From: Candidatus Woesearchaeota archaeon
GTDB taxonomy: Archaea; Nanobdellota; Nanobdellia; Pacearchaeales; GW2011-AR1
DNA: 64,000 nt
Reading direction: 5' to 3'
Assembly (NCBI GenBank): GCA_964608765.1
Contig: CAZSPD010000004.1
Location: 658 to 64,657, forward strand
How positions within the stretch are numbered: the stretch's first letter is position 1; each line of letters opens with the position of its first letter. A program made the position numbers and the translations under genes. A model generated the notes under the pieces. The model had not been told where the DNA came from. It did not search any database and saw nothing but the letters and a program-made list of their open reading frames with translations. Positions 4,597 through 64,000 of the stretch are shown here, in pieces.

Positions 4597-4659
4597 ACGA
4601 ATCTTAAAATAATTTTATCTAATGATAATTCTTTTAAACACTAAATTCTTATATTGTTT

Positions 4660-36338: not shown

Positions 36339-36463
36339 TATTCTATTTTGTATATTTAGTCAAAGAAAATGTAACTTTTAGTACAAAATACAAAAGATAT
36401 AACTGATTTATTATTCTATTTTGTATATTTAGTCAAAGAAAATGTAACTTTTAGTACAAAATA
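36339..36463. repeat. Exact 52-bp direct repeat (73-bp period) upstream of the Fic gene
   Basis: tattctattttgtatatttagtcaaagaaaatgtaacttttagtacaaaata at 36339-36390 and 36412-36463; each copy is internally bounded by tattttgta/tacaaaata. Confidence 0.92.
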
Positions 36464-36498
36464 GGAATATTTTTAAACTTTAAATCCTTATAAATATC

Positions 36499-37740: not shown

Positions 37741-37783
37741 AAATTATAAAACCACCGGAACAATTAGTCCAAAAAGTGTAAAG

Positions 37784-38988: not shown

Positions 38989-39084
38989 CTTTAGTATATA
39001 AACATTTCTGTATACTCTTAGTGATATATTCTTATACTAGAAGGAGTATACCTATTTCTACTCTATTTTTTCTTAGAATTAACA

Positions 39085-39495
39085 ATTGTACCAGAAGGTG
39101 CTGTTTTTGTAAAAGGAAATTTCTTTCAAGAAGAATTTGAAAAAGACTTTGAGGAAGGCTACGATTTAATAATTGCTTCACTAGTTCTTCATTTCACAAA
39201 AAGAGAATACACCCCCAGGATTATCAAAAAAATCCAAGACTCAACTTCAAAAAATGGGTATAATTTTTTAATATTAATGTCTAATAAAGATTCTTTTTCA
39301 AAAAATAATTTAGATAGATTTTATCCTTCACTAGACGAAATATTAGAAATTTACAAAGATTGGAAAGTAATTAAAGTTCTTGAAGATGAAACAGAACCAG
39401 AACAACATTCTAACTCCAATGTTCAAGAACATCCTCATACACACCATCTTATTTTCATTATTTTTCAGAACCAAATATCCACTCTAAATTCTTAA
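39085..39495 (+). pseudogene. C-terminal half of a TehB-like SAM-dependent methyltransferase
   Basis: The frame upstream of the listed ORF gives FVKGNFF...YDLIIASLVLHF...KIQDSTSKNGYNFLI; motif I and a start codon are missing. Confidence 0.65.
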
Positions 39496-51024: not shown

Positions 51025-51193
51025 CTCTTTTTAACCAGTTGCGGCTAACTATGATATAGTTATTAATTTGTATCTATTAACTATTTATTTATACTATATT
51101 GATACATATTTGTATTTATAAATATTTGGGGTGTGGAGGAGAGATTTCACTAATATCAATGGTTTATAAATCTCATACCAAAAAATATATAAA

Positions 51194-51229
51194 TACTGAA
51201 AAATCAGTAATATTACTGAAAAATCAGCA
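51194..51229. promoter_or_regulatory. Two tandem palindromic operators of module 2
   Basis: TACTGA-AAAA-TCAGTA (51194-51209) and TACTGA-AAAA-TCAGCA (51214-51229), just downstream of TATATAAA. Confidence 0.7.
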
Positions 51230-51239
51230 ATAATCTAAC

Positions 51240-51899
51240 ATGGAAAAAATAAAGAGAAAACAAGAAGAGGGATTTAGTGCAGTTTTTGGAGATGTTGAGA
51301 TTTCCCATCTAGAAGGAACAATTCTCGCTTCTTTTTTCCCTGAAGCAGAGGAGATGACAATAAAAGAGATTAAAGAGAGGGTGGATTATTCTTATGAGAG
51401 GGTTAATTCTGCACTTAAGTTTCTTACTGAAAAAAAGATAGTTATTGAAAAACAAAAGGGAAAAACCCTCATTTATTCTATTAATATTGAAAGTCCATAT
51501 TCTTATAGCTTAGGATTTAACAGATATATGCTTCAAAGAGAAATAGATTTTATCAAAAGAAATAAGCTAATATACACTGCAATTAAAGAATTGAGTATGC
51601 ATCCATACTCTTGGATGATTGTTTTGTTTGGGAGCTATTCTAAAAATACAGAATCTAAACAGAGTGATGTAGATTTAATCTGTATTTCCAGCAATAAAAA
51701 AGAGACAGAGGATTTTATTCATTCATTAAAACGTAAATATGGGATTAATTTTGCTCCTGTAATACTTCCTTTGCATGAGTTTCCTAATATAAAAAAAGAT
51801 AACCCCGAATTATGGGATGATTTAAAGAAGTATGCAATAATCTTTAAGGGAGGAGATTACTTCTATTCTTGGATGTATAAAGATGAAAATAAGTATTAA
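51240..51899 (+). CDS. wHTH-minimal nucleotidyltransferase (module 2)
   Basis: LFGSYSKNTESKQSDVDL. Confidence 0.9.
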   Translation: MEKIKRKQEEGFSAVFGDVEISHLEGTILASFFPEAEEMTIKEIKERVDYSYERVNSALKFLTEKKIVIEKQKGKTLIYSINIESPYSYSLGFNRYMLQREIDFIKRNKLIYTAIKELSMHPYSWMIVLFGSYSKNTESKQSDVDLICISSNKKETEDFIHSLKRKYGINFAPVILPLHEFPNIKKDNPELWDDLKKYAIIFKGGDYFYSWMYKDENKY

Positions 51900-52398
51900 T
51901 CAATTAATAAAAAAAGGATATCTTTCAAAGGATGATTCTTCCAGAAGTCTCTCTAAAAGATATCTTCAAAAAGCGAGAAATAATTTAATCACCATGAGTT
52001 TGCTTTCTGAGATAAATGCAAGTAAAAAGGTAAGGGATTTGCTAAAAATACCTTCAGATTATAATTCGGATGAGTGGATTGTCATAACAGGATATTATGC
52101 AATGTATTCTTCAGCATTGGCTTTGATTTCTAAGATTGGATATAAAAGCAAGAATCACACTGCTACAATACTTTTGTTAGAAGAATTTTTTATTAAAAAG
52201 AAATTGATGTCTGCAGAAGACTTATCTTTACTAAAGAACGCAATCTTTCAGAAATTTGAAATAGAAAAATTATCTGAAGCAAGACATAAACGTGAGGTAG
52301 CACAATACAGTGTGACTAAGCAAACAACAAAAGAGATTGCTCAAAATGTGATAGAAGATGCTTATAATTTTGTAAATAAAGTGGAATTGATAATTTAG
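51883..52398 (+). CDS. HEPN-domain protein (module 2)
   Basis: WIVITGYYAMYSSA, YKSKNHTAT, KREVAQY. Confidence 0.85.
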   Translation: MKISINQLIKKGYLSKDDSSRSLSKRYLQKARNNLITMSLLSEINASKKVRDLLKIPSDYNSDEWIVITGYYAMYSSALALISKIGYKSKNHTATILLLEEFFIKKKLMSAEDLSLLKNAIFQKFEIEKLSEARHKREVAQYSVTKQTTKEIAQNVIEDAYNFVNKVELII

Positions 52399-52493
52399 TA
52401 TTTTTTCATTTAATTATTCGGGGTGTGGAGGGGAAGAAATTAAAGGGGAGTCGTAATAGAAAAACTTAAATTCTCCATTCTTCTACTTAAATT

Positions 52494-53171
52494 ATGAAAA
52501 TAATTTTATCTGGAGGGGGAAGCGGAGAACAAACTACAGAATTAGATAGCCTCTTTGCTAGTTTATTAGATAAATCTAAACCTCTTTTATATATTCCAAT
52601 TGCAATAGATAATATTAAACACCCTTATCCTGAGTGTTTGAAATGGTTGAAATCTACATTTGATAATTTAGGAGTAACTAAATATGAATTGTGGGCAGAA
52701 CAAGATTTATCAAAATCTAAGGAAGTTCCTCCAGAAAAATTTTCTGGTATTTATATTGGTGGAGGAAACACCTTTTATTTGATACATCAACTAAAGAAAT
52801 CCGGTTTTTGGAATTTTCTTATGAATGCAATTGAATTAGATATTCCAGTATATGGTGGTTCTGCAGGAGCAATTATACTTTCTAAATCTCTTACAACTGC
52901 AAAATACTATGATAAAGATTGGAATGGATTAAAGAACCTTAAAGCAGCAAATTTAGTCAATGGATATGATATTATCTGTCATTACAAAGAAGAGAGAAGA
53001 GATAAATTAAACGAGATACTTTCTCATGAAAAATTAAAGGCTGTTTTACTGACAGAAAGAAGTGGACTATATAATGATGGAAAAAAGGTAATACTTGTGG
53101 GAAAAGATCCTTCAATAGTTGTAAATAAGAAAAAAGAATTTATACTCAAACCAGGAGAAGAATTAAATTAA
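52494..53171 (+). CDS. pepE: Peptidase E family (S51)
   Basis: IYIGGGNTFYL, YGGSAGA catalytic Ser, ICHY. Confidence 0.85.
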   Translation: MKIILSGGGSGEQTTELDSLFASLLDKSKPLLYIPIAIDNIKHPYPECLKWLKSTFDNLGVTKYELWAEQDLSKSKEVPPEKFSGIYIGGGNTFYLIHQLKKSGFWNFLMNAIELDIPVYGGSAGAIILSKSLTTAKYYDKDWNGLKNLKAANLVNGYDIICHYKEERRDKLNEILSHEKLKAVLLTERSGLYNDGKKVILVGKDPSIVVNKKKEFILKPGEELN

Positions 53172-54148
53172 AAATTTTCTTTAACCACTTTTTCCAGTGA
53201 AGATTCCCACCTTTGCCATAATTTATCTTGGTCTTCAATAAATTTCTCCATAAAAGAATATACATTCTTTAAGTAAAGTTCGTAGTTTTCCAATATAATA
53301 TTTAGATTCTTTTTAGCTTCATATAAATTTGAAGAAACTTTGCCAATCTTTTCCTTTTCTATTATTTCAAATTGTTTTTTATCAGAAGTTATACATAAAG
53401 GAATACATCCATAAGATAGTCCATCTAATATAGAATATTCAAAATAATCTCTTAACCCTCCATCGGAACAATGAATTAATATTCTTGCTTCTTCTAATAA
53501 CTTTCTTTTTTCTTTTTCAGATATTCCCAATCCTGAATCTGGGGGAATAAACTTAATATTTTCACCTTCATTCTCTTTAAGTTTTGAAACATAATCTTGA
53601 AATTCCCATGAACCAGCAATAATAAGGGGAAATTCTGTCTTTTTTGCAAAATCTATTGCTAATTTTGGTTTTTTATCTTCAACTATCCTTGATATAAAAA
53701 GGGAAAAATCTTTTTTTATTAAGTTTTTTTTAAGACGTAAATCAAACGGTATATACCCTCCCTCTATTAAATTTATGTTAAATCCCCTGCTCTTATAATA
53801 ATCATTTACTCTTTCTCTATGGGTTAGCCATGGAGTTATCTTAGCTTTAGGGTTTTCTATAAAATTCTTTAAACTATTTCCACTATGGCAAAATTTTATT
53901 TGGTTTCTATTTCTTAATTCTTGGAATTGGTATTTGTCTACTATTGGGATAAAAACTATCTTTGTTGGAGGAACACCTTCTATAGGGCTTATATCCCAAA
54001 TTAAAGAATTATCAAATTTCTTTTCATTCAAATAAACAGGTTTGTTTAACTTTTTGGATATAATTGAAGTCATCCTTTGAGCACCTCCCAATTGAGAATC
54101 ATACTCTGCATAGATTGAGAGATTGTCATAAACTTCCTTAGACAGCAT
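53168..54148 (-). CDS. GT-B fold glycosyltransferase (divergent GT4-like)
   Basis: GGAQRM, FISRIVEDKKP, EYSILDGLSYGCIP. Confidence 0.7.
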   Translation of the reverse strand: MLSKEVYDNLSIYAEYDSQLGGAQRMTSIISKKLNKPVYLNEKKFDNSLIWDISPIEGVPPTKIVFIPIVDKYQFQELRNRNQIKFCHSGNSLKNFIENPKAKITPWLTHRERVNDYYKSRGFNINLIEGGYIPFDLRLKKNLIKKDFSLFISRIVEDKKPKLAIDFAKKTEFPLIIAGSWEFQDYVSKLKENEGENIKFIPPDSGLGISEKEKRKLLEEARILIHCSDGGLRDYFEYSILDGLSYGCIPLCITSDKKQFEIIEKEKIGKVSSNLYEAKKNLNIILENYELYLKNVYSFMEKFIEDQDKLWQRWESSLEKVVKENF

Positions 54149-54512
54149 TTTCTTTCTCTAAACTGCTATTTATATACGAATAGGTTTCTTGTTTGGAATT
54201 CAAGGGTTTAATGAATTTACTCCAATAGTCATAAGAATAAGAAACTAAATTAAATGTATCGAATAATCCATAATTTTCCGAGATATTTTTAACATACTTA
54301 TTAAACTGGTTTTTTGAATCTATATTTGAGTTTCTTATATTCGACATAGAAAGCAAGGTTAAAGACCTAATACTATCTATAATTCCATACCTAGAGTGTT
54401 TTAATTCATTTTTAGGAGTTATTAGTTCAAAAAAAGGTTTATCTCCCAAAGAAATTATTATCCTTAAAAAAATAATTAGAAGAGAATTAAACAATATCCC
54501 TAAATTAACCAA
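54138..54512 (-). CDS. Hypothetical protein or gene remnant
   Basis: 124-aa ORF with a weak TTG start; overlaps the next gene. Confidence 0.35.
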   Translation of the reverse strand: MVNLGILFNSLLIIFLRIIISLGDKPFFELITPKNELKHSRYGIIDSIRSLTLLSMSNIRNSNIDSKNQFNKYVKNISENYGLFDTFNLVSYSYDYWSKFIKPLNSKQETYSYINSSLEKENAV

Positions 54513-54746
54513 AGGAATTTTAAAGGGAAAATATAGATTAAATTAGATAATATCTTCTTCCTTTAGAAAAATTAAATTTATGTTTTATCTTAAAATAATG
54601 TAAGGTTATCTTAGTTAGATAACAGGATTTTCTTCTCACACCTTTTTAAAATATTCCTTAAAATGTTGCATCCAGCACTTATTACTATACGACACCATCG
54701 TAAAGTTTATTGTTCATAAAAACATTTAAATAGTATTGGTTCATAA

Positions 54747-55316
54747 ATGATACATATGGTTCAAAATAGAGACGATATAGAATCTGAAATAATATTGGTT
54801 TTGCTTAAGAATGAGACTCATCTTAGAGAGATAGCAAGGATTCTTGGAGAGTCGCATTCTACGCTATTAAGGAAGATTAAGGATTTGTTAAAAAATAATA
54901 TTTTAGATTATAAAAAACAGGGAAAGAATAAAGTTTTTTTTATTAGGAACAATCTAAAGGCCAGAAATTATGTTTATTCTGCAGAAATCTACAAGTTTAA
55001 CCAACTTCTAAGGAAACATCCAGAATTATCAATAATATTAGGAGATATAAAAAAGAATTTTCCAAGTGGAATGATTCTTCTATTTGGAAGTTATGCTAAG
55101 GGAATTGCAAGAACTGACAGTGATATAGATATTTATCTTGAGACAGAAGATAACAAACTTAAAAATAAAATAAGCGAATTAAATTCAAAATTAAGTATTA
55201 AGATAGGAGCTTTTGAAACAAAATCCTTATTAATTAAAGAAATTATAAAGAATCATATAATAGTAAGAGGTATAGAAGAGTTTTATGAAAGAACTGACTT
55301 TTTTAAGGAAACTTAG
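54747..55316 (+). CDS. wHTH-minimal nucleotidyltransferase (module 3)
   Basis: HLREIARILGESHST, LFGSYAKGIARTDSDIDI; probable start 54756. Confidence 0.9.
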   Translation: MIHMVQNRDDIESEIILVLLKNETHLREIARILGESHSTLLRKIKDLLKNNILDYKKQGKNKVFFIRNNLKARNYVYSAEIYKFNQLLRKHPELSIILGDIKKNFPSGMILLFGSYAKGIARTDSDIDIYLETEDNKLKNKISELNSKLSIKIGAFETKSLLIKEIIKNHIIVRGIEEFYERTDFFKET

Positions 55317-55776
55317 GAAAGATAAAATTCTTCAGTTAGTTGAACCTTCTGAAGAAATGAAATCTTCTTATCTAATTAAAGCAGAAAACTGCCTTAAATC
55401 TGCCAAAATACTTCATCAGAATCAGATTTATGAAAACTCTACATCAGAAGCCTATTACTCTATGTATAATTCACTCTTATCTTTATTATTCAATGCTGGA
55501 ATTAAATCTGAAAATCATTCTGCTTCTATTCTGCTTTTGGATATATTATTTAAAAAGAAAGAGATGGCAAAAACCCTCTTTTGGGCTAAAGGAGAAAGAA
55601 TAGATAAACAATATTATATAGAAACTCAGCAAATTGTAAAAGTAACAAATGAATCTTGCAATGATATGATATTGAAAGCAGAGGAATTTTTAATAAAGAT
55701 GAAATTATTAATATCTGAGATAAGCAACGAGAGTATTAGTTCTGTTAGAAAAGAATTTATAGACTTATTTGGATAA
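55285..55776 (+). CDS. HEPN-domain protein (module 3)
   Basis: EAYYSMYNSL, IKSENHSAS, ERIDKQYY. Confidence 0.85.
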   Translation: MKELTFLRKLRKDKILQLVEPSEEMKSSYLIKAENCLKSAKILHQNQIYENSTSEAYYSMYNSLLSLLFNAGIKSENHSASILLLDILFKKKEMAKTLFWAKGERIDKQYYIETQQIVKVTNESCNDMILKAEEFLIKMKLLISEISNESISSVRKEFIDLFG

Positions 55777-55832
55777 TTTAAGTGTAACTATTGCTCTATT
55801 ACAATATTTGATTTAGTATGATAACTTCCTTC

Positions 55833-55988
55833 TCACACTTTTTTAAAATACTCTTTAAAATGTTTCATCCAGCACTTCTTGTGGAAGATGAAAAACTCCT
55901 TTATTTTTTGTCCTCTTTTACCTATTAGCATTACATATTCGTCTTTTGATTCATCGATTCGATTGGAGCATTTTGAGCAGGTTTTCAT
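55833..55988 (-). CDS. Small Zn-finger-like protein
   Basis: MKTCSKCSNRI...FHKKCW (CxxC...HxxC); ATG at 55988 preferred over the longer ORF call. Confidence 0.65.
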   Translation of the reverse strand: MKTCSKCSNRIDESKDEYVMLIGKRGQKIKEFFIFHKKCWMKHFKEYFKKV

Positions 55989-56052
55989 TTTGGTTAATAT
56001 ATGTATGTAGGTAACTATATTACTATTTAAATATGTGTATACTGATACATAT

Positions 56053-56265
56053 ATGGCTAGTAAACCCATTAACAGAATAATGGAGGAAATCTTTGACTTA
56101 TTAAAAAAAGAAAAAGAATTATCTACAAGGCAATTATCAGTTAATATTGGCTCACAATGGATAACTATTGAAAAAGCTCTTGAATCTATGAAAAAATTAG
56201 AAGTTGTTAAGGAAAGAATTGATAAATTTGATAAAAGAAATACTCGGCTTTGGAGCCTAAAATGA
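56053..56265 (+). CDS. Small wHTH transcriptional regulator
   Basis: LSTRQLSVNIGSQWITIEKALESM, RLWSL; divergent from the Zn-finger gene. Confidence 0.7.
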   Translation: MASKPINRIMEEIFDLLKKEKELSTRQLSVNIGSQWITIEKALESMKKLEVVKERIDKFDKRNTRLWSLK

Positions 56266-56957
56266 AATTTAAGTTGAGGAGACTTGCTAGGGAGTTTAAT
56301 TTGAGATTCAGTGAAACATGGTTTAAACTTATTTGGATATCTAAGAGAGAGAATATACTTCTTGAGTATATGTGGATGTGTCCAGATCCAATTTACATTA
56401 AATATGGTAAAACTTCTTATGAAAGAGCTAAGAACATTGAGTGTTTTATTGATTCAGATGAGTTTAAAGAGTGCTTAGAGAGATTTGGAGGGCAGGTTAT
56501 TGAGAGGAATACTTTCAAAAAGTATTTTCCTGGATGGATAAATGAAATAGAAAATTTGGAGATTCGGAGAGAGCTACATACTATTTATAAGAAGATATCG
56601 GGTGCAATGGGGATGGGTCCTAGAATTGCTGTCTTGACAAAATCTTCTAAAAAAAGTGAGATAGAGAAAATTAAGTCATTTGTTTTATTTCATGAATTCA
56701 TTCATATATTAGTTAATGAAAATAAACTTGATTTTAAAGATTGGAGATACAATGAAGGTTTGGTTACTTATTTACAAGAATTTTCTAATAAAAAGATTAA
56801 TAAGTTGGATGAGGAAGCTAGGAAATCTACTTACAATTTCCAAAAACAGTATTATGTTTATGCTATTAAGTTTAGAGAATTGCTTAAAGGAGATAATGTT
56901 CCAGAAAAAAGAAAACAAAAAATAATCGAACTAAAAAACTCTTTAGGAAGGGGATAA
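56250..56957 (+). CDS. Putative gluzincin-type metallopeptidase
   Basis: FHEFIH followed by YNEGLVTY. Confidence 0.6.
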   Translation: MEPKMKFKLRRLAREFNLRFSETWFKLIWISKRENILLEYMWMCPDPIYIKYGKTSYERAKNIECFIDSDEFKECLERFGGQVIERNTFKKYFPGWINEIENLEIRRELHTIYKKISGAMGMGPRIAVLTKSSKKSEIEKIKSFVLFHEFIHILVNENKLDFKDWRYNEGLVTYLQEFSNKKINKLDEEARKSTYNFQKQYYVYAIKFRELLKGDNVPEKRKQKIIELKNSLGRG

Positions 56958-56976
56958 GAAGAGAAAATAAAAATCT

Positions 56977-57303
56977 TTAGTTTGATCTAACTATCTTTCT
57001 AAGAATATCTCCCAATAATAATCCTATTGAGGCTATTGTTATAGCAGGAAATATAATTAAGATGAGATAGATAACAGTTATAGCAACTACCACCTGACTT
57101 GATGTAAATAGCAACATAAATTCTTCTTTGAAAAGGTAAATTACTACTAGTCCAAGAATACCTAAAATTAAGATAATCCATTCAAGCATATCTCTTACTT
57201 TTTCTAATTTTTTTCTCTTTTCAGATTCTTTTATAAGGAAATACCCAACTACAATAAAAGATATTAAAATCGTTAATATAACTACCCACATTAAATTAAC
57301 CAT
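56977..57303 (-). CDS. Small three-TM membrane protein
   Basis: Hydrophobic 108-aa ORF with its own promoter. Confidence 0.65.
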   Translation of the reverse strand: MVNLMWVVILTILISFIVVGYFLIKESEKRKKLEKVRDMLEWIILILGILGLVVIYLFKEEFMLLFTSSQVVVAITVIYLILIIFPAITIASIGLLLGDILRKIVRSN

Positions 57304-57353
57304 AATAATTACAACATCTTCAACTATTTACGCTTTTCTGTACACTCTATTCT

Positions 57354-57788
57354 TTAATTATTCTTTTGTGCATCTTTCTTCAATTTAAAAAGAAATAGGC
57401 TTCCAAGAATAAATCCTAAAATATCTCCAAAAATAAACTTTATCCACTCTGTACTTTGAATACCTTCTTTTACACAATAGTAAGAAGCATCAGAAATAAT
57501 AAAGGCAATCAAAGAAAGGAAATATGGAAAATTCCAACTTTTATTATCTCTTTTTCTTCCAAGAATAGATTCTACTCCAAAACTAAATATAAGTAATAAT
57601 GTAGGAAGGCCAAATCCCCAAAAGAAATGTTCTAGGAAATTCCTTCCAAAGAAATCATATAATATTACCTCCTTATTAGAGAAGTTCATAAGGAATCTAT
57701 TCATAGATAGGAAAATAACACCGATAAGAACAATTAAGAAAATCATCTTGTATTCTTTTTTTATCATGGCTCTTCTTAATCCTTTCAA
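57354..57788 (-). CDS. Small polytopic membrane protein
   Basis: Hydrophobic; HFFWGF; probable start at MIKKEYK (57767). Confidence 0.65.
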   Translation of the reverse strand: MKGLRRAMIKKEYKMIFLIVLIGVIFLSMNRFLMNFSNKEVILYDFFGRNFLEHFFWGFGLPTLLLIFSFGVESILGRKRDNKSWNFPYFLSLIAFIISDASYYCVKEGIQSTEWIKFIFGDILGFILGSLFLFKLKKDAQKNN

Positions 57789-57802
57789 CTATTTACATAT
57801 TT

Positions 57803-58099
57803 TTATTTTGAATTTAAGACCATTAAAACAGATAGTGTAAGCAATATGAACACTACCCAAAGAAAATTTATAATTGATTTTTTGACTTCACCCCTATTTC
57901 TCAGTTTAATATATACCCCCAATGTGAATATAAGATAACCTAAACAAGCTGTTAAAAATATTGAGTTAAATATTGTTTCTCCAAGTGAATTTAGAAATTT
58001 AATTATTGCATAAGAAAATAAAATCCCCCCTATTATCTCAAATAATCTTCCAAAAGAATATGTATCCTCTTTATTCCCCGGATAAATTCTTTTATTCAT
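57803..58099 (-). CDS. Small three-TM membrane protein
   Basis: Hydrophobic 98-aa ORF. Confidence 0.65.
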   Translation of the reverse strand: MNKRIYPGNKEDTYSFGRLFEIIGGILFSYAIIKFLNSLGETIFNSIFLTACLGYLIFTLGVYIKLRNRGEVKKSIINFLWVVFILLTLSVLMVLNSK

Positions 58100-58165
58100 A
58101 AAAAATAAAGACTTTTATTATTTATAATATTATGTGGGATGAATAGCATATTACTTATTTTTCAT

Positions 58166-58897
58166 TTATTTTAGGAGGTTTCCACTTAATGAAAAAAGAA
58201 CAAACGTAACAAGTACTATGATTAAAATGATAGACGCGGCCAATACTAACCTTTCTTTTTTCGATTCTTTCTCTGGAATAATAGAGATTAGGTTTAGCAG
58301 AGACACGATTAGAGTAAGGATGGCAACCCATAACATAATATTTGAGGAAATGCTCATTTTTCTTGTAGAGCTTTCTATGGATCCCAACATGGTTGCCGAT
58401 CCTTTTATTTGATTAGATTGTTCTTTAAATAGGCTATATTGCCATTGTGGCATAGCGGAGAAGTAATATCTGAAGCAATTTCCATGGTAATAATACCCGG
58501 ATGGGCTATAGAATTTGATAAAATTTGTTTCGTAGTTAGAAGAACATATTTCTAGCTTGTAATCTGATGTGGTTTCAAAGTTCCAGACATAGAAATCCTT
58601 TTTTTCAGTGATATTTTTATAGGGATAAAATTCATAATAAGAGTAAGGTTGAATTTCAACAAATTTCGTTAATGTAGGATAATCTATTCCTGGATGATTT
58701 AAATTCGTTACAACAATGCTTATATTCCCTTTATACATTTCAGAATCGTTATTATAAATAGTTATATTGTAAATGAAAATATCCCCTACTACATTATATT
58801 CTGAGCTTATTGGGCCTTTAGAAATTATCTCAATGTCTAAGATAAGAGTGGATACTTTTGCAGAAACACTGCAAATTAGTATTATTACAAATAACAA
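58166..58897 (-). CDS. Secreted/membrane protein; 5' end out of frame at an A9 tract
   Basis: The ATGs at 58941/58938 are one frame off from the signal peptide KRATLFIALLFVIILICSVSA; two C-terminal TMs. Confidence 0.65.
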   Translation of the reverse strand: MLFVIILICSVSAKVSTLILDIEIISKGPISSEYNVVGDIFIYNITIYNNDSEMYKGNISIVVTNLNHPGIDYPTLTKFVEIQPYSYYEFYPYKNITEKKDFYVWNFETTSDYKLEICSSNYETNFIKFYSPSGYYYHGNCFRYYFSAMPQWQYSLFKEQSNQIKGSATMLGSIESSTRKMSISSNIMLWVAILTLIVSLLNLISIIPEKESKKERLVLAASIILIIVLVTFVLFSLSGNLLK

Positions 58898-59094
58898 TGC
58901 GATAAATAAAGTTGCTCTTTTTTTTTCAGATTAAACATCATAATCACAATATCTCTAACTATTTACGTCTTTCTGTTCCGCTTTCTCTTCAACTTATGTA
59001 GAGTATAATTATTTTTTCCACCGATATCTATTTTTTAAAAATATACAATATTATTTAAATAGAAATACCTTCTCAACAGGAAGTAGATACTAAA

Positions 59095-59457
59095 ATGACT
59101 TTAGAAAATTTATATCCAAAAGAATGGGATGAGATTACAAATAAAAAAATCCCGAAAGAAGAAATAAATATTTATTTCTTAAAATTTGTAGCAAAGCTAG
59201 TAAAAGAAGAAAAAAGAAACAAAAAAACAGATACGAGTGTTGGAGATGGTTGGAGTATGGTTATTAATATGAATAAAAACTATTATAAATTAGCTCCAGA
59301 AATTTATGGTTTCCTTTTTAGATTAGGAGACTACGATATGCAAGACAATCTAGGACACGGAACTAGTGAATATGGTGATATGCTTTACACTTTGCAAGAA
59401 GTTGAACCTGAGTTAATAAAAATTGCAGGCAAATTTGGATTAAATTTAGATTTGTAA
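59095..59457 (+). CDS. Hypothetical protein
   Basis: 120-aa ORF with upstream TATA and a downstream hairpin plus T-tract. Confidence 0.65.
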   Translation: MTLENLYPKEWDEITNKKIPKEEINIYFLKFVAKLVKEEKRNKKTDTSVGDGWSMVINMNKNYYKLAPEIYGFLFRLGDYDMQDNLGHGTSEYGDMLYTLQEVEPELIKIAGKFGLNLDL

Positions 59458-59464
59458 TTTTACT

Positions 59465-59494
59465 GGCTTCTGGATAATACTGGAAGCCTTTTTT
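59465..59494 (+). terminator. Hairpin plus T-tract
   Basis: GGCTTC...GAAGCC followed by TTTTTT, 8 nt after the 59457 stop. Confidence 0.55.
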
Positions 59495-59505
59495 ATTTTA
59501 CTTCT

Positions 59506-59660
59506 TTACTTCTTCATCCGCTTATACAGTAATCCCCAGAACAATACAAAATATATAAGGAAGAACAACATTCCTGAATAACTATGGTAAAGCCCAAGTG
59601 CTATATTGGGGGAGATGTATGCTCCTACAAGCATTAGTGTGAAAACTCTTAGTATATTAA
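59506..59660 (-). pseudogene. Orphan 3' end of the archaeosortase gene
   Basis: 59558-59660 is 102/103 identical to 61219-61321 and continues in frame as IYFVLFWGLLYKRMKK*. Confidence 0.9.
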
Positions 59661-59750
59661 TTACTTTTTCTAAGAAATTTACTTAGATAACAGAATTCTA
59701 CTTCTTCATTAAAACTTCAATCTTTTTTCAAGAATATATAAACAAGTATT

Positions 59751-59800
59751 TAACTAAAGTTAAACTATAATTAAACTTTAGTATAACTAAAGTTAAACTA
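59751..59800. promoter_or_regulatory. Duplicated 17-bp box upstream of the AAA ATPase
   Basis: taactaaagttaaacta at 59751 and 59784, with an inverted partial copy (aactttagt) between them. Confidence 0.6.
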
Positions 59801-59848
59801 CACATTAATAATAGTAAGGTTTATAAATAAGCTCTATCTTTATTAAGT

Positions 59849-61042
59849 ATGAATGTAGCGACAAAATATACTGAGAGAAATATAAAAGAAAGATTTGATA
59901 AGTTAATTAAGCCCTATCAGGTCATTGCAATAGTTGGGGCAAGACAAGCTGGCAAAACAACATTCCTAAAAGAACAAGCAAAGAGATTCAAGAGTAATTA
60001 TCTTCTATTTGATGATCCGGATATAAGGGAATTATTTGATGAAGATATTAAAAAATTTGAAATTCAAAATATAGAAGGGAATGAACTTTCTGTATTGGAT
60101 GAAGTTCAGTATTGTAAAGATGCAGGAAGGAAACTGAAATATCTTGCAGATAATAGCAGAAAGTTATGGGTAACCTCTTCTTCTGAAATTTTGCTAAGTA
60201 AAGAGGTATTATCTTATCTTGTGGGAAGGGTTTCAATAATAAAACTTTACCCATTTTCAATAGAAGAATTTCTCGATTTAAAAAACTTAAAAGAATTTTC
60301 TAAAATTACATTAAAAAGAGCATTATGGGAGCATATGACATTTGGAGGATACCCTAAAATAAATCTCACAGGAGATATAGAATTGAAAAAAACTATGCTT
60401 AAAGATTTATATGAAACAATGATTCTCAAGGATATTGCAAGAACTTTTTCAATAGATGATTTATCCTCTTTAGAAAAATGTTTAAGGTATCTAGCAATTA
60501 ATACAGGAAATTTGATTTCCTACGATTCACTTTCTAAAGATGTGAAGATTTCATTTCAGACTCTGAAAAAATATTTAGAATCAATGGAAAAAAGTTATCT
60601 ATTATATTCAGTTCAGCCATTTTTTAAAAATAAGCTTAAGGAGATAATTAAACAGCCTAAAATCTATTTTATTGATACTGGATTGAGAAATTTTATAGCA
60701 AAATCTTTTAATGATGAACCAGAGGGTAATTTGTTTGAAAATTATATATTCACAGAACTATTGAAAATGGGCTTCTCGCCAAAGTATTGGAGAACAAAGA
60801 CAAAGATGGAAATTGACTTTGTAATAGAAAAAGAATCAAATATAATACCTATAGAGGTTAAAATCAATGCAAAATCAGAGAAAGTTGAGAGGAATATTAG
60901 AGCATTTATAGAGGAATATAAACCAAAAACTGCAATTATTGTTTCTTATGAAGGAGAGAAATCAGAGATAGAAGTCGATGGTTGCAAAGTTGTATTTACA
61001 GATTTAATTGGTATGAAAAAAATTTTATCTAAATTCACCTAA
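59849..61042 (+). CDS. AAA_14-family ATPase with DUF4143-like C-terminal domain
   Basis: GARQAGKTT, LDEVQY, GRVSII, FGGYP, KIYFIDTGL, EIDFVIE...PIEVK. Confidence 0.92.
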   Translation: MNVATKYTERNIKERFDKLIKPYQVIAIVGARQAGKTTFLKEQAKRFKSNYLLFDDPDIRELFDEDIKKFEIQNIEGNELSVLDEVQYCKDAGRKLKYLADNSRKLWVTSSSEILLSKEVLSYLVGRVSIIKLYPFSIEEFLDLKNLKEFSKITLKRALWEHMTFGGYPKINLTGDIELKKTMLKDLYETMILKDIARTFSIDDLSSLEKCLRYLAINTGNLISYDSLSKDVKISFQTLKKYLESMEKSYLLYSVQPFFKNKLKEIIKQPKIYFIDTGLRNFIAKSFNDEPEGNLFENYIFTELLKMGFSPKYWRTKTKMEIDFVIEKESNIIPIEVKINAKSEKVERNIRAFIEEYKPKTAIIVSYEGEKSEIEVDGCKVVFTDLIGMKKILSKFT

Positions 61043-61071
61043 AATTTGATTTCAATTAGATAACTATTATC

Positions 61072-61180
61072 GTTTCATCCACTAAACTTCATCCTTGAAG
61101 TTTTGGTACTCAGTGTTTCATCCACTAAACTTCATCCTTGAAGTTTTGGTACTCAGTGTTTCATCCATTAAACTTCATCC
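61072..61180. repeat. 43-bp tandem repeat, 2.5 copies, containing an 8-bp-stem hairpin
   Basis: gtttcatccactaaacttcatccttgaagttttggtactcagt at 61072 and 61115, partial at 61158; AAACTTCA-TCCT-TGAAGTTT. Confidence 0.92.
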
Positions 61181-62108
61181 ATTTGTAGAGTAGACCCCAG
61201 AAGAGGATGAAGTATATTAGGAAGAACAACATTCCTGAATAACTATGGTAAAGCCCAAGTGCTATATTAGGGGAGATGTATGCTCCTACAAGCATTAGTG
61301 TGAAAACTCTTAGTATATTAAATGCAAATGCTCCTAGAATTGCAGGTATGAACAATATAGCTGCTTTCTTTTTGTTTATTTTATTCCAGTCTAAAAATAC
61401 TATGAAAAGATATAATGCAGTGAAGATAAATATACTGTATATTCCACTGCAAGCTTCTGCAATTATAACAGAGAATCCATTAACAGTTATTCCATCTGTT
61501 CCAAAGATTATAACATCTACCCCAATTATTTTTAATAAGAAAGTAGTTGATTTCATAACACCTAAACTTAGATAAGTCCATAAACTCCAGACAAGATTCA
61601 TGAATGAGTAAGTTATTATTGCAAATATTAAAAAGTAGAATAATTCTTTCTTAAATTTTTTAATAAAGTTATTTGTGAGATTTATTCCAAATACTCCCCA
61701 TGCAAGGCAGAAAAATACAGAGAGTGCAAGAAGGTGAAACCAGATTATATTGAAGAGTGTTGGGTTGAGAGTATTTATGTTGTTGCTTACTAAATAAAAA
61801 GCACCTAATAGAACACATGAGATTCCAATTAGTAAATAGTCTTTTTTCTCTCTTTTGAATTTTCCTAATTCACTTATTCTTTTTCTATAAAGAAGAATAA
61901 ACCCTACTATTGAGAAAAGAATTATGTATCCTGCTCTTCCGTAAATTTCAATTTTCCATTTAGTTAACAAATTATTAGAAAATACACTTATACCTACAAT
62001 AAAAGAAAATACGATAAATAAAATAATAAAGATACCTGTTTTCCATAAGAACTGCTTAAGTCCTGGATTTAACTTAGGTTTGGCTTGGGTTTTTCCCTTA
62101 GTTTTCAT
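61161..62108 (-). CDS. Archaeosortase/exosortase family protein
   Basis: Polytopic; IIAEACSGIYS (Cys), NILRV (Arg), LYH (His). Confidence 0.88.
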   Translation of the reverse strand: MKTKGKTQAKPKLNPGLKQFLWKTGIFIILFIVFSFIVGISVFSNNLLTKWKIEIYGRAGYIILFSIVGFILLYRKRISELGKFKREKKDYLLIGISCVLLGAFYLVSNNINTLNPTLFNIIWFHLLALSVFFCLAWGVFGINLTNNFIKKFKKELFYFLIFAIITYSFMNLVWSLWTYLSLGVMKSTTFLLKIIGVDVIIFGTDGITVNGFSVIIAEACSGIYSIFIFTALYLFIVFLDWNKINKKKAAILFIPAILGAFAFNILRVFTLMLVGAYISPNIALGLYHSYSGMLFFLIYFILFWGLLYKWMKFNG

Positions 62109-62169
62109 GTATTTTTAGTGGAGATTATTGTTTATATTATTTGCCTGTGTGGTTAATATTGCTTACTTT

Positions 62170-62915: not shown

Positions 62916-64000
62916 ATGGAAAAGAGGAAGTTGATGTTATTATCTTCTGTACTTTCTGTTATTTTAATTTTAATGATTGTCACACTTGTTTCTAGTGGCT
63001 TAATTTATACTGGAAAAGCAATACAAAAACCATGCACGTGTGCATCTTATGGATATAAATGTGGATATCAAACTATTTGTGGAAAAACTGAGAACTGTGG
63101 AACTTGTTCTTCAGGATATTCTTGTGCAGCAAATGGAACGTGTATAAAACTCTGTTCACCTGAGACAAATAATCAATTTTGTTCAAGATTAGGTAAGAAT
63201 TGTGGAAGTGTTACAGGAGTAGATAATTGTGGTAGTTCAAGAACAACTACTTGTGGTTCATGTGCTTCAAATCAAATGTGTACTAATGGACTTTGCACTC
63301 AAAATTGTACACCTGAATCTAATACTCAATTTTGTTCAAGATTAGGTAAGAATTGTGGAAGTGTTACAGGAGTAGATAATTGTGGTAGTTCAAGAACAAC
63401 TACTTGTGGTTCATGTGCTTCAAATCAAATGTGTACTAATGGACTTTGCACTCAAAATTGTACACCTGAATCTAATACTCAATTTTGTTCAAGATTAGGT
63501 AAGAATTGTGGAAGTGTTACAGGATATAATAATTGTGGAAAACTAATTACAACTGATTGCGGTGTGTGTAAAGGAGGAAGTGTGTGTCAGGATGGAAAGT
63601 GTACTAATTGCTCAGCTACATGTGCTTCACTAGGATTCCAGTGTGGGGTTTACAATATTTGTAATAAAACACTTAATTGTGGAGCTTGTCCTTCAGGATA
63701 TACTTGTAATTCTGGAAATGGTACATGTGTAAAATCAGTGTGTATTCCAGGAAATTGTAGTTCACTAGGTAAAAATTGTGGAACAGTTTCAGATGGATGT
63801 GGAAAAATAATAAATTGTGGAACATGTATTTTACCTGCAACATGTGGGGGAAGTGGTGTATCTAATGTGTGTGGATGTACTGCTGAGACAAATATTCAAT
63901 TTTGTTCAAGATTAGGTAAGAATTGTGGAAGTGTTACAGCATATAATAATTGTGGTACATTAAGAACAATTAATTGTGGAGTGTGTTTAAATGGATATAC
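62916..64000 (+). CDS. Cys-rich repeat surface protein (3' partial; not in the ORF track)
   Basis: ATG at 62916, MEKRKLMLLSSVLSVILILMIVTLVSSGLIYTGKAI, open to the window end; FCSRLGKNCGSVT modules as in 2434..7845. Confidence 0.88.
   Translation, partial: MEKRKLMLLSSVLSVILILMIVTLVSSGLIYTGKAIQKPCTCASYGYKCGYQTICGKTENCGTCSSGYSCAANGTCIKLCSPETNNQFCSRLGKNCGSVTGVDNCGSSRTTTCGSCASNQMCTNGLCTQNCTPESNTQFCSRLGKNCGSVTGVDNCGSSRTTTCGSCASNQMCTNGLCTQNCTPESNTQFCSRLGKNCGSVTGYNNCGKLITTDCGVCKGGSVCQDGKCTNCSATCASLGFQCGVYNICNKTLNCGACPSGYTCNSGNGTCVKSVCIPGNCSSLGKNCGTVSDGCGKIINCGTCILPATCGGSGVSNVCGCTAETNIQFCSRLGKNCGSVTAYNNCGTLRTINCGVCLNGY
63174..63524. repeat. Exact 153-bp (51-codon) intragenic tandem repeat, 2.3 copies
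   Basis: caattttgttcaagattaggtaagaattgtgg starts at 63174, 63327 and 63480. Confidence 0.92.

What the first reader, a model, noticed from the sequence alone, without database searches (positions are those of the whole stretch)
51128..61321. Candidate system: recombinase-less TA/ATPase mini-cassettes inserted at gene 3' ends
Seen: three 1.2-1.7 kb modules within 10 kb (repeat spacings 1292, 1197 and 1661 bp) each lie between direct repeats (12, 49 and 103 bp), and each carries a tandem operator-like sequence. In two cases the repeat is the 3' end of the adjacent minus-strand gene. Known: integrative elements that restore their target gene usually hit tRNAs and encode an integrase. Inference: a family of non-autonomous cassettes moved in trans or by host recombination, which could explain how MNT-HEPN and AAA_14 genes turn over quickly in small genomes.
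Basis: inference. Interest (0 to 1): 0.75.

Follow-up and report, generated by a model that had tools for sequence, protein, structure and literature searches.

The report
Recombinase-less defence/TA cassettes at gene ends
Small self-contained toxin-antitoxin-like and ATPase-nuclease gene cassettes in this DPANN-type archaeal genome sit between duplicated copies of a neighbouring gene's end and carry no recombinase; related cassettes in many other archaea show the same repeats far more often than control genes, which points to a poorly described way for such genes to move.

Summary
Two repeat pairs are real and large: 149 nt at 91% (59512-59660 / 61173-61321) and 55-73 nt at about 90% (54611-54683 / 55813-55880). 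Each copies the 3' end of the adjacent minus-strand gene, which stays intact. The third pair, an exact G-rich 12-mer, is only marginal.

The modules are two wHTH-MNT/HEPN pairs and one AAA_14-DUF4143 ATPase-nuclease. Each has its own promoter and operator and no recombinase.

They behave as mobile cassettes:
- A 92%-identical relative lacks the AAA_14 cassette and carries two other cassettes at neighbouring sites.
- Relatives keep only the cassette core, in unrelated flanks.
Flanking direct repeats of differing sequence occur in 6/38 AAA_14 loci against 0/70 control genes, and in 12/41 MNT-HEPN loci against 1/29.

Displaced copies differ from the intact gene ends mostly at synonymous sites (codon positions 1/2/3 = 15/5/36). 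So they come from foreign functional alleles, not from decay in place.

Best reading: non-autonomous cassettes carry a piece of a host gene end and insert by host recombination (Campbell-like). A recombinase acting in trans is not excluded. I rate it a new variant of known kinds (CIME, minimal mobile element), interest about 0.68.

The parts
51107..51142 (+). Left copy of the weak repeat of module 1 (core GGGGTGTGGAGG, 51128-51139)
   Evidence: The minus strand reads ..EISPPHPKYL*.
51194..51227 (+). Tandem palindromic operator-like sites TACTGAAAAATCAG x2 upstream of MNT-1
   Evidence: (I21).
51240..51899 (+). wHTH-MNT nucleotidyltransferase 1 (219 aa)
   Evidence: Pfam NTP_transf_2 5e-8 plus wHTH families. 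PADLOC PDC-M05A.
51883..52398 (+). HEPN protein 1 (171 aa), overlaps MNT-1 by 17 nt
   Evidence: Pfam HEPN 4e-5. Alignment A7.
52399..52434 (+). Right copy of the weak repeat of module 1 (core 52420-52431)
   Evidence: The minus strand reads ..SSPPHPE*.
54611..54683 (-). Displaced 3' fragment of the small ORF (last 15 codons, stop, and about 25 nt downstream with a hairpin); left repeat of module 2
54708..54746 (+). Promoter/operator of module 2 (TATTGTTCATAAA ... TTTAAATAG ... TATTGGTTCATAA). The proximal part is conserved in about 60 related cassettes.
54747..55316 (+). wHTH-MNT nucleotidyltransferase 2 (189 aa)
   Evidence: Pfam Polbeta 9e-9 and NTP_transf_2 5e-8. PADLOC PDC-M05A/S09.
55285..55776 (+). 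HEPN protein 2 (163 aa), overlaps MNT-2 by 32 nt
   Evidence: Pfam HEPN 1.5e-9. 80 relatives at 54-77% identity in metagenomes.
55813..55880 (-). Right repeat of module 2: the 3' end of the intact small ORF plus its downstream sequence
55833..56069 (-). Target gene of module 2 (78-aa ORF; the likely product starts at MKTCSKC..)
   Evidence: No Pfam hit.
59512..59660 (-). Displaced archaeosortase 3' fragment, reading ..FVLFWGLLYKRMK, followed by K* and native downstream DNA; left repeat of module 3
59752..59848 (+). Conserved operator/promoter of the AAA_14 cassette (CTAAAGTTAAACTA x2, a palindrome, TATA box TTTATAAATA). Homology with relatives starts here.
59849..61042 (+). AAA_14 - DUF4143 ATPase / PD-(D/E)XK nuclease (397 aa)
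   Evidence: Pfam AAA_14 4e-29 and DUF4143 1e-39. PADLOC PDC-S01 1e-79. Invariant Walker A/B and E321, D323, E336, K338.
61072..61180 (.). 43-nt tandem unit x2.5. Each unit is a strong hairpin and contains GGATGAAGTTTAGTGGATGAA. The last unit overlaps the final codons of the archaeosortase gene (..WMKFNG*).
   Evidence: (D10, D11).
61173..61321 (-). Right repeat of module 3: the 3' end of the intact archaeosortase gene
61161..62108 (-). Archaeosortase/exosortase-family gene (315 aa), target of module 3. Its C-terminus is altered to ..KWMKFNG*, where homologues have ..KWMKK*.
   Evidence: Pfam PF09721 2e-23. Homologue C-termini.

Best explanation
The three modules are compact accessory cassettes. 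Two are wHTH-MNT/HEPN toxin-antitoxin-like pairs. One is an AAA_14-wHTH-PD-(D/E)XK ATPase-nuclease, a candidate defence gene. Each brings its own promoter and operator, so it regulates itself. None encodes a recombinase.

They are mobile as units of about 1.1-1.9 kb. A cassette travels together with a 20-150-nt copy of the terminal part of a host gene taken from a previous genome. It inserts into the matching gene end of a new genome by the host's own recombination. This would be a Campbell-type, 'ends-in' homologous or microhomology-mediated event.

The result is an intact target gene next to the cassette and a displaced, homologous but diverged gene-end fragment on the far side. Recombination between the two copies can loop the cassette out again. 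Addiction or defence functions would explain why these genes persist despite the flanking repeats.

Shown:
- the anatomy of the modules;
- the presence/absence polymorphism in a close relative;
- the enrichment of flanking repeats in two cassette families;
- the foreign-allele origin of the displaced copies;
- the absence of a cassette-borne recombinase.

Inferred:
- that the host recombination machinery, rather than a recombinase acting in trans, performs the joining;
- that a circular intermediate exists;
- that addiction or defence stabilises the cassettes.
For: 1. Polymorphism. Relative L003 lacks the AAA_14 cassette. It carries a 0.5-kb 97-aa-ORF insert and a 1.39-kb Fic cassette at sites that are empty in the window.

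2. Cassette core in unrelated contexts.
- AAA_14 relatives at 80-84% nucleotide identity share only window 59752 to about 61065.
- About 55 MNT-HEPN relatives have unrelated flanks.
- AAA_14 homologues at >=60% amino-acid identity span DPANN lineages and Thermoplasmata, Methanoperedens and Methanosarcinales.

3. Repeat enrichment against shifted and gene-aligned controls.

4. Nature of the repeats.
- They differ in sequence and length between loci.
- There are no conserved cassette-end motifs or inverted repeats.
- Where the repeat is coding, its inner edge lies within about 15 nt of the stop codon.

5. Differences between intact and displaced copies fall at codon positions 1/2/3 = 15/5/36 (chi-square p = 1.5e-6). 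In the window's 149-nt repeat, 14 nucleotide differences change only 2 of 49 residues.

6. Mosaic structure. There are 2 mismatches in the first 104 nt against 12 in the last 45 nt (p = 1e-5). The right junction lies at the 8-nt GGATGAAG that is also repeated in the tandem units.

7. Two unrelated cassette types show the same architecture, so the mechanism is not encoded by the cargo.

8. Recombinases are absent nearby.
- None was found among about 50 window ORFs.
- Of 15 repeat-positive loci elsewhere, only L026 has a tyrosine recombinase, and there it is the target gene. That locus also has an IS607-like pair about 1.2 kb from the cassette.
Against: - No circular form or same-population empty site was seen. 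Contigs simply break at the repeats, and no circular contigs were found.
- The mosaic of the 149-nt repeat cannot be produced by one Campbell event. It needs extra gene conversion.
- Only about 15-20% of related cassettes have detectable repeats. The window's Fic gene and third MNT-HEPN pair have none.
- How a cassette first acquires a new target fragment is not explained.
- One MNT-HEPN subfamily carries a conserved 75-nt element, in two loci on both sides. This could be a dedicated recombination site.
- Repeats of 12-23 nt are short for homologous recombination.
- The rest of each genome was not searched for recombinases.
Confidence: 0.5

Rival explanations
1. The cassettes are non-autonomous satellites, in the manner of cis-mobilizable elements (CIMEs). 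The flanking repeats are attL/attR sites, and a site-specific tyrosine or serine recombinase encoded elsewhere in the genome, or on a virus or plasmid, excises and integrates them in trans.
For: - The architecture is exactly that of elements that target a gene's 3' end: the gene is restored and the native end is displaced.
- CIMEs are defined as having lost integration genes while keeping attL/attR (PMC6323972).
- One MNT-HEPN subfamily carries a conserved 75-nt element at -184, and in two loci also at +82.
- Archaeal integron-like arrays without an integrase exist in Nanoarchaeota (PMC9668308).
Against: - The repeats differ in sequence and in length (20-152 nt) in nearly every locus, with no shared core. 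Many different recombinases, or a very promiscuous one, would be needed.
- No recombinase was found in 64 kb of the window.
- None was found near 14 of the 15 repeat-positive loci.
- The repeats do not fold like attC sites (z about 0).
Confidence: 0.22
2. Duplication in place. The cassette was joined illegitimately inside the gene end at a staggered break, and repair synthesis duplicated 20-150 nt of the target, like a long target-site duplication. The copies then diverged, or were patched later by unrelated recombination with other strains.
For: - Several repeats are identical or nearly so: L126 34/34, L034 20/20, L088 43/44.
- The first 104 nt of the window's 149-nt repeat are 98% identical.
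- There is microhomology (GGATGAAG) at one junction.
Against: - The differences are strongly biased to synonymous sites. Position 2 carries 5 of 56 differences, p = 0.002 even under a mixed model.
- The reading frames, stop codons and cysteines of displaced fragments are preserved.
- The mismatches cluster in one patch.
- No known mechanism produces duplications of such variable length.
Confidence: 0.13
3. The modules are decayed remnants of larger integrase-bearing integrated elements (proviruses or plasmids). Only the addictive TA or defence gene and the two att repeats survived deletion.
For: - Archaeal integrated elements are typically flanked by direct repeats, one of which overlaps the target gene (PMC4158269).
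- TA modules resist loss (my own knowledge of the field).
Against: - In more than 15 independent loci with different repeats, the interval holds only the promoter, the cassette genes and tens of nucleotides. Spacings are 1107-1871 nt, and there are no pseudogene debris.
- The cassette core, not a larger element, is what recurs in unrelated contexts.
- The families are nearly absent from the viral contig collection.
Confidence: 0.07
4. For module 3 only: the AAA_14-DUF4143 protein, which has an ATPase, a wHTH domain and a PD-(D/E)XK nuclease, itself catalyses the cassette's insertion. It would be a self-mobilising nuclease gene.
For: - The catalytic residues are intact and invariant.
- The family spreads across phyla at >=60% identity.
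- Repeats are enriched around it.
Against: - MNT-HEPN cassettes, which have no DNA nuclease, show the same repeat architecture.
- There are no terminal inverted repeats or conserved ends.
- The family is catalogued as a defence candidate: PDC-S01 and arCOG03166, 'likely involved in defense' (PMC4158269).
Confidence: 0.05

Closest known systems
Integrative elements that target the 3' end of a gene (tyrosine-integrase islands, proviruses and plasmids; pNOB8-type in archaea)
   Same: - Direct repeats flank the insert, and one overlaps the 3' end of the target gene.
- The gene is restored and the old end is displaced.
- Related strains differ in presence or absence.
   Different: - No integrase, and the unit is only 1.1-1.9 kb.
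- The targets are protein-coding genes, or occasionally 5' ends or intergenic DNA, not tRNA genes.
- Repeat length and sequence vary widely even within one cassette family.
Cis-mobilizable elements (CIMEs) of streptococcal and other ICE systems (PMC6323972)
   Same: They are non-autonomous: they keep flanking att-like repeats but lack integration and transfer genes.
   Different: - CIMEs share att sites with a cognate ICE or IME whose integrase acts on them. No cognate element or shared att core was found here.
- The repeats here are locus-specific gene ends carrying foreign-allele signatures.
Minimal mobile elements (MMEs) of Neisseria (Saunders & Snyder 2002; described in PMC3082526)
   Same: - Different whole-gene cassettes lie between the same conserved genes in different strains (window against L003 on both sides of the archaeosortase gene).
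- There are no mobility genes, and incorporation is attributed to host homologous recombination.
   Different: - MMEs are exchanged through homology in both flanking genes and leave no flanking duplication.
- Here a duplicated, diverged gene end flanks the cassette, and the same cassette occurs in many unrelated contexts.
Integron gene cassettes and CALIN arrays, including the archaeal ones (PMC9668308)
   Same: - Small cassettes, rich in TA and defence genes, without their own recombinase.
- Reported in Nanoarchaeota.
   Different: - There are no attC hairpins, and the repeats here are coding gene ends.
- The cassettes carry their own promoters and operators.
- They are not co-oriented in an array, and no IntI is present.
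MNT-HEPN (type VII, MntA/HepT-like) toxin-antitoxin pairs, and the PADLOC candidates PDC-M05A and PDC-S01
   Same: - Domain content and gene order match, with overlapping bicistronic genes.
- An N-terminal wHTH domain and upstream operators point to autoregulation.
   Different: - The HEPN proteins lack an obvious Rx4-6H motif; they read R-x3-4-Q-Y.
- The MntA equivalog scores are below cut-off.
- No function has been tested.

Membership tests
Gene-3'-end-targeting integrative element (integrase type) | Direct repeats flank the insert, one overlapping the 3' end of an intact target gene | tested here: met
   Modules 2 and 3. Also L020, L039, L026, L042, L034 and L134.
Gene-3'-end-targeting integrative element (integrase type) | An integrase is encoded within the element | tested here: not met
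   The repeat-bounded intervals hold only the cassette genes.
Gene-3'-end-targeting integrative element (integrase type) | An empty site exists in relatives | tested here: met
   L003 lacks the AAA_14 cassette. The window lacks L003's Fic and 97-aa cassettes.
Gene-3'-end-targeting integrative element (integrase type) | A short identical crossover core is shared by attL and attR and conserved among related elements | tested here: inconclusive
   GGATGAAG (8 nt) lies at the right edge of the 149-nt repeat. No core is shared among loci.
CIME (cis-mobilizable element) | Keeps attL/attR but lacks integration and transfer genes | tested here: met
   Formally met by modules 2 and 3.
CIME (cis-mobilizable element) | A cognate autonomous element with the same att sites and an integrase that acts on them | tested here: not met
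   No recombinase among about 50 window ORFs, and none near 14 of 15 repeat-positive loci. Whole genomes were not searched.
Integron cassette / CALIN | attC site: an imperfect inverted repeat of 55-140 nt with R''/R' boxes that folds as a hairpin | tested here: not met
   The repeats are coding gene ends. DNA folding gives z = +0.3, -0.1 and -0.8 for the repeat copies. Rfam found no match.
Integron cassette / CALIN | Promoterless, co-oriented cassettes downstream of attI/IntI | tested here: not met
   Each cassette has its own conserved TATA box and operator. No IntI was found.
Minimal mobile element (MME) | Alternative cassettes lie between the same two conserved genes in different strains | tested here: met
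   Seen at the archaeosortase/120-aa-gene site and at the 90-aa-gene/archaeosortase site, window against L003.
Minimal mobile element (MME) | Exchange occurs only through homology in both flanking genes, with no flanking duplication | tested here: not met
   Diverged duplications of gene ends flank the cassettes.
Transposon / insertion sequence | A transposase, terminal inverted repeats, and a short target-site duplication of fixed length | tested here: not met
   No transposase was found. No conserved ends exist. The repeats are 20-152 nt long and not identical.
Type VII TA (MntA/HepT) | MNT domain with the GS...DxD nucleotidyltransferase motif | tested here: met
   LFGSY.K....SD.D is invariant in the three window MNTs. 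Pfam NTP_transf_2 and Polbeta match.
Type VII TA (MntA/HepT) | HEPN toxin with the Rx4-6H RNase motif | tested here: not met
   Alignment A7 shows R-E-x-A-Q-Y or R-I-D-K-Q-Y and no conserved His after the Arg. This rests on inspection only.
Type VII TA (MntA/HepT) | Score above the NCBIfam MntA equivalog cut-off | tested here: not met
   26.9 and 33.0 bits against a cut-off of 60.
PDC-S01 / COG1373 / arCOG03166 (AAA_14-DUF4143) | AAA_14 ATPase plus a DUF4143 PD-(D/E)XK domain with catalytic residues | tested here: met
   Pfam. PADLOC 1e-79. Invariant GKT, DE, and E321/D323/E336/K338. DUF4143 is placed in the PD-(D/E)XK superfamily (PMC3424549).
PDC-S01 / COG1373 / arCOG03166 (AAA_14-DUF4143) | Anti-virus defence activity | not testable with these tools
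   It has candidate status only in PADLOC and in PMC4158269.

The most novel reading that the evidence does not exclude
Archaea may have a widespread mode of gene mobility that needs no recombinase. Selfish defence or TA cassettes would carry a short 'passport' copy of the end of a host gene from their previous genome. They would use the new host's own recombination to insert into the matching gene end, restoring the gene. The displaced fragments would then be molecular fossils that record the donor lineage. If so, this explains how TA and defence genes spread without mobility genes of their own.
Probability: 0.35. Interest if true: 0.85.

Novelty: new variant of a known kind. Interest (0 to 1): 0.68.

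Why it matters
TA modules and single-gene defence candidates such as COG1373/AAA_14-DUF4143 are among the most patchily distributed and most often transferred genes in archaea and bacteria. Most of them carry no mobility genes, and how they move is largely unknown.

This locus, and the roughly 15 comparable loci found in other archaeal phyla, give a concrete anatomy that can be tested:
- a cassette with its own promoter;
- a duplicated end of a host gene;
- foreign-allele signatures in the displaced copy.

If the mechanism is host recombination using a portable homology arm, three things follow:
- It explains rapid cassette turnover in very small DPANN genomes that lack integrases.
- The displaced fragments become a way to trace donors of horizontal transfer.
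- Short 3'-end gene fragments in metagenome-assembled genomes should be read as insertion scars, not as annotation noise.

Tried and rejected
- tRNA and Rfam scans of the window and of related loci found nothing. The targets are therefore not tRNA or known RNA genes.
- Exact-protein look-up of the archaeosortase found nothing.
- The glycosyltransferase between modules 1 and 2 has no relative above 54% identity, so no empty-site comparison was possible for modules 1 and 2.
- TTAGATAAC occurs three times in the window, all at the edges of cassettes 2 and 3, and just after the AAA_14 stop codon in relatives. The count is not significant (24 of 100 shuffles), and the copies are parts of small hairpins. 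I dropped it as a recombination site.
- attC-like folding of the repeats was rejected.
- A conserved 75-nt 'A element' flanks one MNT-HEPN subfamily. It has no hairpin and no Rfam family, and it is absent from the window. It remains unexplained.
- The search for circular contigs found none.
- The viral-contig collection gave one AAA_14 hit, in a giant-virus bin, and no HEPN hit.
- The PDB sequence search with AAA_14 found nothing.
- The displaced 45-nt patch is nearer to the L004/L014 allele (36/45 against 30/45), but this is not significant (p = 0.12).
- I tried single-event Campbell and integrase-type reconstructions of the 149-nt mosaic. None fits without an extra conversion step.
- Tandem duplication followed by deletion was rejected because of the synonymous-site bias.

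Full report
**Context**

The window has about 29% G+C. It encodes ArgRS, a class-I aaRS, type-IV-pilus-like ATPase and membrane proteins, Cys-rich surface proteins, a glycosyltransferase cluster and an archaeosortase.

Homologues of its proteins are named Woesearchaeota, Pacearchaeota or Nanoarchaeota. It is therefore chromosomal DNA of a DPANN-type archaeon.

No tRNA gene and no Rfam family is present.

**Observation**

Self-BLAST and the repeat finder confirm two strong direct repeats:
- 59512-59660 / 61173-61321: 149 nt, 90.6% identity, E 3e-53, spacing 1661.
- 54629-54683 / 55826-55880: 55 nt at 89%. With a 4-nt indel it extends to 54611-54683 / 55813-55880. Spacing 1197.

The right copy of the first pair is the 3' end of the archaeosortase gene 61161-62108(-). 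The right copy of the second pair is the last 15 codons and stop of ORF 55833-56069(-). Both left copies keep the reading frame and a stop codon.

The third repeat is an exact 12-mer, GGGGTGTGGAGG, at 51128 and 52420. It extends to 21 matches in 24 nt. Its score of 16.5 lies at about the 97-99th percentile of control intervals. Isolated 12-mers at such spacing are common in the window (170 pairs), although this one is the most G+C-rich. I treat it as marginal.

A third near-copy at 17752 forms the C-terminus (..LPPPHLG*) of an 84-aa minus-strand ORF. Both module-1 copies also read ..SPPHP..* on the minus strand. They may be gene-end remnants too, but this is not established.

**What lies between the repeats**

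- Module 1: wHTH-MNT (51240-51899) and HEPN (51883-52398).
- Module 2: wHTH-MNT (54747-55316) and HEPN (55285-55776).
- Module 3: AAA_14 + DUF4143 (59849-61042).

These assignments come from Pfam.

PADLOC files them as candidate defence systems: PDC-M05A/S09 for the MNT proteins and PDC-S01 (E 1e-79) for AAA_14.

DUF4143 is a PD-(D/E)XK domain (PMC3424549). The archaeal family arCOG03166 has been called 'likely involved in defense' (PMC4158269). Walker A/B and E321, D323, E336 and K338 are invariant in 15 homologues.

The MNT-HEPN pairs resemble type VII TA pairs. However, they score below the MntA equivalog cut-off, and their HEPN proteins show no Rx4-6H motif.

Each module has tandem operator-like sites just upstream of its first gene. 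The 43-nt tandem at 61072-61180 is instead a pair of strong hairpins between convergent genes (z = -4.4).

No repeat-bounded interval has room for a recombinase. None was found among about 50 ORFs of the window.

**Polymorphism**

Contig L003 (Logan SRR31904127) carries an archaeosortase that is 95% identical in protein and about 92% in DNA.

- It has no AAA_14 cassette. The archaeosortase ends ..KWMKK*, as do all other homologues.
- After a different 0.5-kb insert holding a 97-aa ORF, the gene is followed by the same terminator and 120-aa gene as in the window.
- Upstream of the archaeosortase, L003 holds a 1.39-kb Fic cassette with three tandem 20-nt repeats. The window is contiguous at that point (62164-62169).

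So three cassette differences lie within 4 kb between two close strains.

**The cassette core recurs in other contexts**

AAA_14 relatives at 80-84% nucleotide identity (L004-L012) align with the window only from 59752 (the operator) to about 61065, just after the stop. Their flanks are unrelated.

The operator and TATA architecture is conserved even in Thermoplasmatales and Methanoperedens copies. Homologues at >=60% amino-acid identity occur across DPANN lineages and several euryarchaeal orders.

For module 2, 80 metagenomic loci encode MNT-HEPN pairs at 54-78% identity. Almost all have unrelated flanks beyond about 200 nt.

I took the best local alignment between the 400-500-nt left and right flanks of each cassette.

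| Cassette family | Threshold | Cassette loci | Controls | Control type | p |
|---|---|---|---|---|---|
| AAA_14 | score >=20 | 8/40 | 1/186 | shifted intervals | not computed |
| AAA_14 (window excluded, deduplicated) | score >=20 | 6/38 | 0/70 | gene-aligned | 0.0014 |
| MNT-HEPN | score >=20 | 9/44 | 1/131 | shifted intervals | 1.7e-5 |
| MNT-HEPN (window excluded, deduplicated) | score >=15 | 12/41 | 1/29 | gene-aligned | 0.005 |

- The repeats are 20-152 nt long and 78-100% identical. They differ in sequence from locus to locus, apart from L084/L085 (duplicate contigs) and L106, which share the A element described below.
- They are mostly 3' ends of neighbouring genes, in either orientation. 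One case is a 5' end (L013) and some are intergenic.
- Where the repeat is coding, its inner edge lies within about 15 nt of the stop codon.
- No conserved terminal motif or inverted repeat marks the cassette ends.

**Origin of the displaced copies**

Across the coding repeats, differences between intact and displaced copies fall at codon positions 1/2/3 = 15/5/36 (chi-square p = 1.5e-6). Reading frames, stops and cysteines are preserved.

In the window's 149-nt repeat, 14 nucleotide differences change only 2 of 49 residues. The differences are also clustered: 2 in the first 104 nt and 12 in the last 45 nt (p = 1e-5).

The displaced fragments therefore diverged while they were parts of functional genes. 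They, or the matching gene ends, come from other genomes. They are not products of duplication in place followed by decay.

The gene-attached copy is L003-like throughout. It switches to cassette DNA at GGATGAAG, an 8-mer that recurs in the tandem units. The displaced copy carries the divergent patch, then the same 8-mer, then native downstream DNA.

The patch is somewhat closer to the allele of L004/L014 (36/45 against 30/45; p = 0.12). Those genomes carry an 84%-identical AAA_14 about 1.26 kb from their own archaeosortase 3' end. This is suggestive only.

No single Campbell or integrase-type event reproduces the whole mosaic. At least one further conversion is needed.

**Mechanism**

The anatomy is that of an integrative element that restores the 3' end of its target gene, shrunk to one or two genes and lacking an integrase.

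Four points make me favour integration and excision by the host's own recombination over a site-specific enzyme acting in trans:
- Two unrelated cargo types show the same architecture.
- The repeats have no common core.
- Repeat lengths are heterogeneous.
- The identity pattern is mosaic.

The event would be a Campbell-type or ends-in event, using a gene-end fragment that travels with the cassette.

Recombinases are scarce nearby. Of 15 repeat-positive loci elsewhere, only L026 has a tyrosine recombinase within the fetched flanks, and there it is the target gene itself. That locus also has an IS607-like pair.

The trans model is not excluded:
- Whole genomes were not searched.
- One MNT-HEPN subfamily carries a conserved 75-nt element, in two loci on both sides.
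- Archaeal attC arrays without integrases are known (PMC9668308). The repeats here, however, do not fold like attC.

Retention through addiction or defence is an inference from the gene content.

**Comparison with known systems**

The closest concepts are these:
- CIMEs: att-flanked and lacking an integrase (PMC6323972).
- Neisseria minimal mobile elements: alternative cassettes between conserved genes, incorporated by homologous recombination (PMC3082526).
- Integron cassettes.
- Classical elements that integrate at a gene's 3' end.

This case differs from each. There is no cognate integrase or shared att site, unlike CIMEs. A diverged flanking duplication and many unrelated contexts are present, unlike MMEs. 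There is no attC, and the cassettes have their own promoters, unlike integrons. There is no integrase, and the unit is of minimal size, unlike classical elements.

I found no description of repeat-flanked AAA_14/COG1373 or MNT-HEPN cassettes in the searchable literature.

**Verdict**

The mechanism is only partly resolved. I rate it a new variant of a known kind, with interest about 0.68.

Noticed in passing
window 36339-38955: A second accessory cluster. It holds a Fic gene (36499-37740, PADLOC PDC-S04/SoFic) preceded by a perfect 52-nt tandem repeat (36339-36390 / 36412-36463). A third wHTH-MNT/HEPN pair lies on the minus strand (38955-37784). Neither has flanking direct repeats (scores 10-12).
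   Followed up: partly
window 39080-39470: An ORF-less stretch next to the third MNT-HEPN pair. By eye it reads like the C-terminal part of a SAM-dependent methyltransferase, possibly a gene fragment. This was not checked with any tool.
   Followed up: no
window 57295-57341 / 58930-58976: A further direct repeat (47 nt, 83%, spacing 1635, score 27). It duplicates a promoter and start-codon region and encloses three small membrane-protein genes (57354-58897). The architecture matches the 5'-end case in L013.
   Followed up: partly
window about 58915-58923: A run of nine A residues lies just after an ATGATG at 58938. With ten A residues the 243-aa gene would start there with a good signal peptide (MMFNLKKKRATLFIALLFVIILICSVSA..). 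This could be a sequencing error or a phase-variable homopolymer.
   Followed up: no
window 17752-17770, 51128-51144, 52420-52437: Three same-strand copies of the G-rich motif G(G/A)GGTGTGGAGG(A/G)G. Each reads ..PPH..* on the minus strand. Only the copy at 17.8 kb ends a real 84-aa ORF, which has no Pfam hit.
   Followed up: partly
L003 1559-2945 and 3956-4450: The close relative carries a Fic cassette with three tandem 20-nt repeats (TTACCATTTAGGCAGGAAAA) and a 97-aa membrane-ORF insert flanked by about 13 nt of AAAATAAAGAGG. A 36-nt copy of the archaeosortase promoter and start (2979-3014) is repeated at 4314-4349.
   Followed up: partly
L003 4892-9905 against the whole window: Synteny with the relative stops right after the 120-aa gene (window about 59070). 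L003's next 5 kb (HAD hydrolase, DHH and His_Phos genes) has no counterpart anywhere in the 64-kb window. Window 50.8-59 kb may therefore be a larger variable island.
   Followed up: partly
L063, L079, L081, L083, L084, L086, L103, L106 (about -184 from the MNT start codon); also L084 4574, L106 2406, L083 222, L075 1697: A conserved element of about 75 nt (CCCCCACGAGATGnTTAACCTTAGGTTAAGGTTCTC...CGACGATAAGG) travels with one MNT-HEPN subfamily in unrelated flanks. It sometimes lies on both sides or bounds neighbouring genes. It has no long hairpin and no Rfam family, and it is absent from the window.
   Followed up: partly
L004 1-204 and 1550-1716; L013 4887-5110: A G+C-rich noncoding element of about 100-200 nt (..AACATTGCTCAAC..GGGAGATAACTTA) lies upstream of the AAA_14 operator in two Woesearchaeota relatives. 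In L004 it is duplicated on both sides of the gene.
   Followed up: partly
L004 / L014, about 35 nt downstream of the archaeosortase stop: The sequence GTGGATGAAGAAGTAG (= WMKK*) looks like a tiny displaced remnant of another archaeosortase C-terminus. This suggests repeated insertion and excision at this gene end in several lineages.
   Followed up: no
L026 4962-5798: In a Methanoperedens genome, the gene whose 3' end is duplicated around the AAA_14 cassette is a 278-aa XerA-like tyrosine recombinase. An IS607-like TnpB/resolvase pair lies 1.2 kb further on.
   Followed up: partly
L083 3506-4138; L126 6242-7525; L011 1723-2400: Cassette types cluster together. A truncated AAA_14-DUF4143 gene lies next to an MNT-HEPN pair (L083). 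A full AAA_14 and a Fic gene lie near another pair (L126). A Fic gene lies next to the closest AAA_14 relative (L011).
   Followed up: no
window 2434-7845 and 63036-63986: Large Cys-rich repeat proteins share 153-nt tandem coding repeats (for example 63132-63590) and have paralogous copies about 58 kb apart. The DUF4215-type surface proteins at 18-31 kb also carry internal tandem repeats (27666-28788).
   Followed up: no
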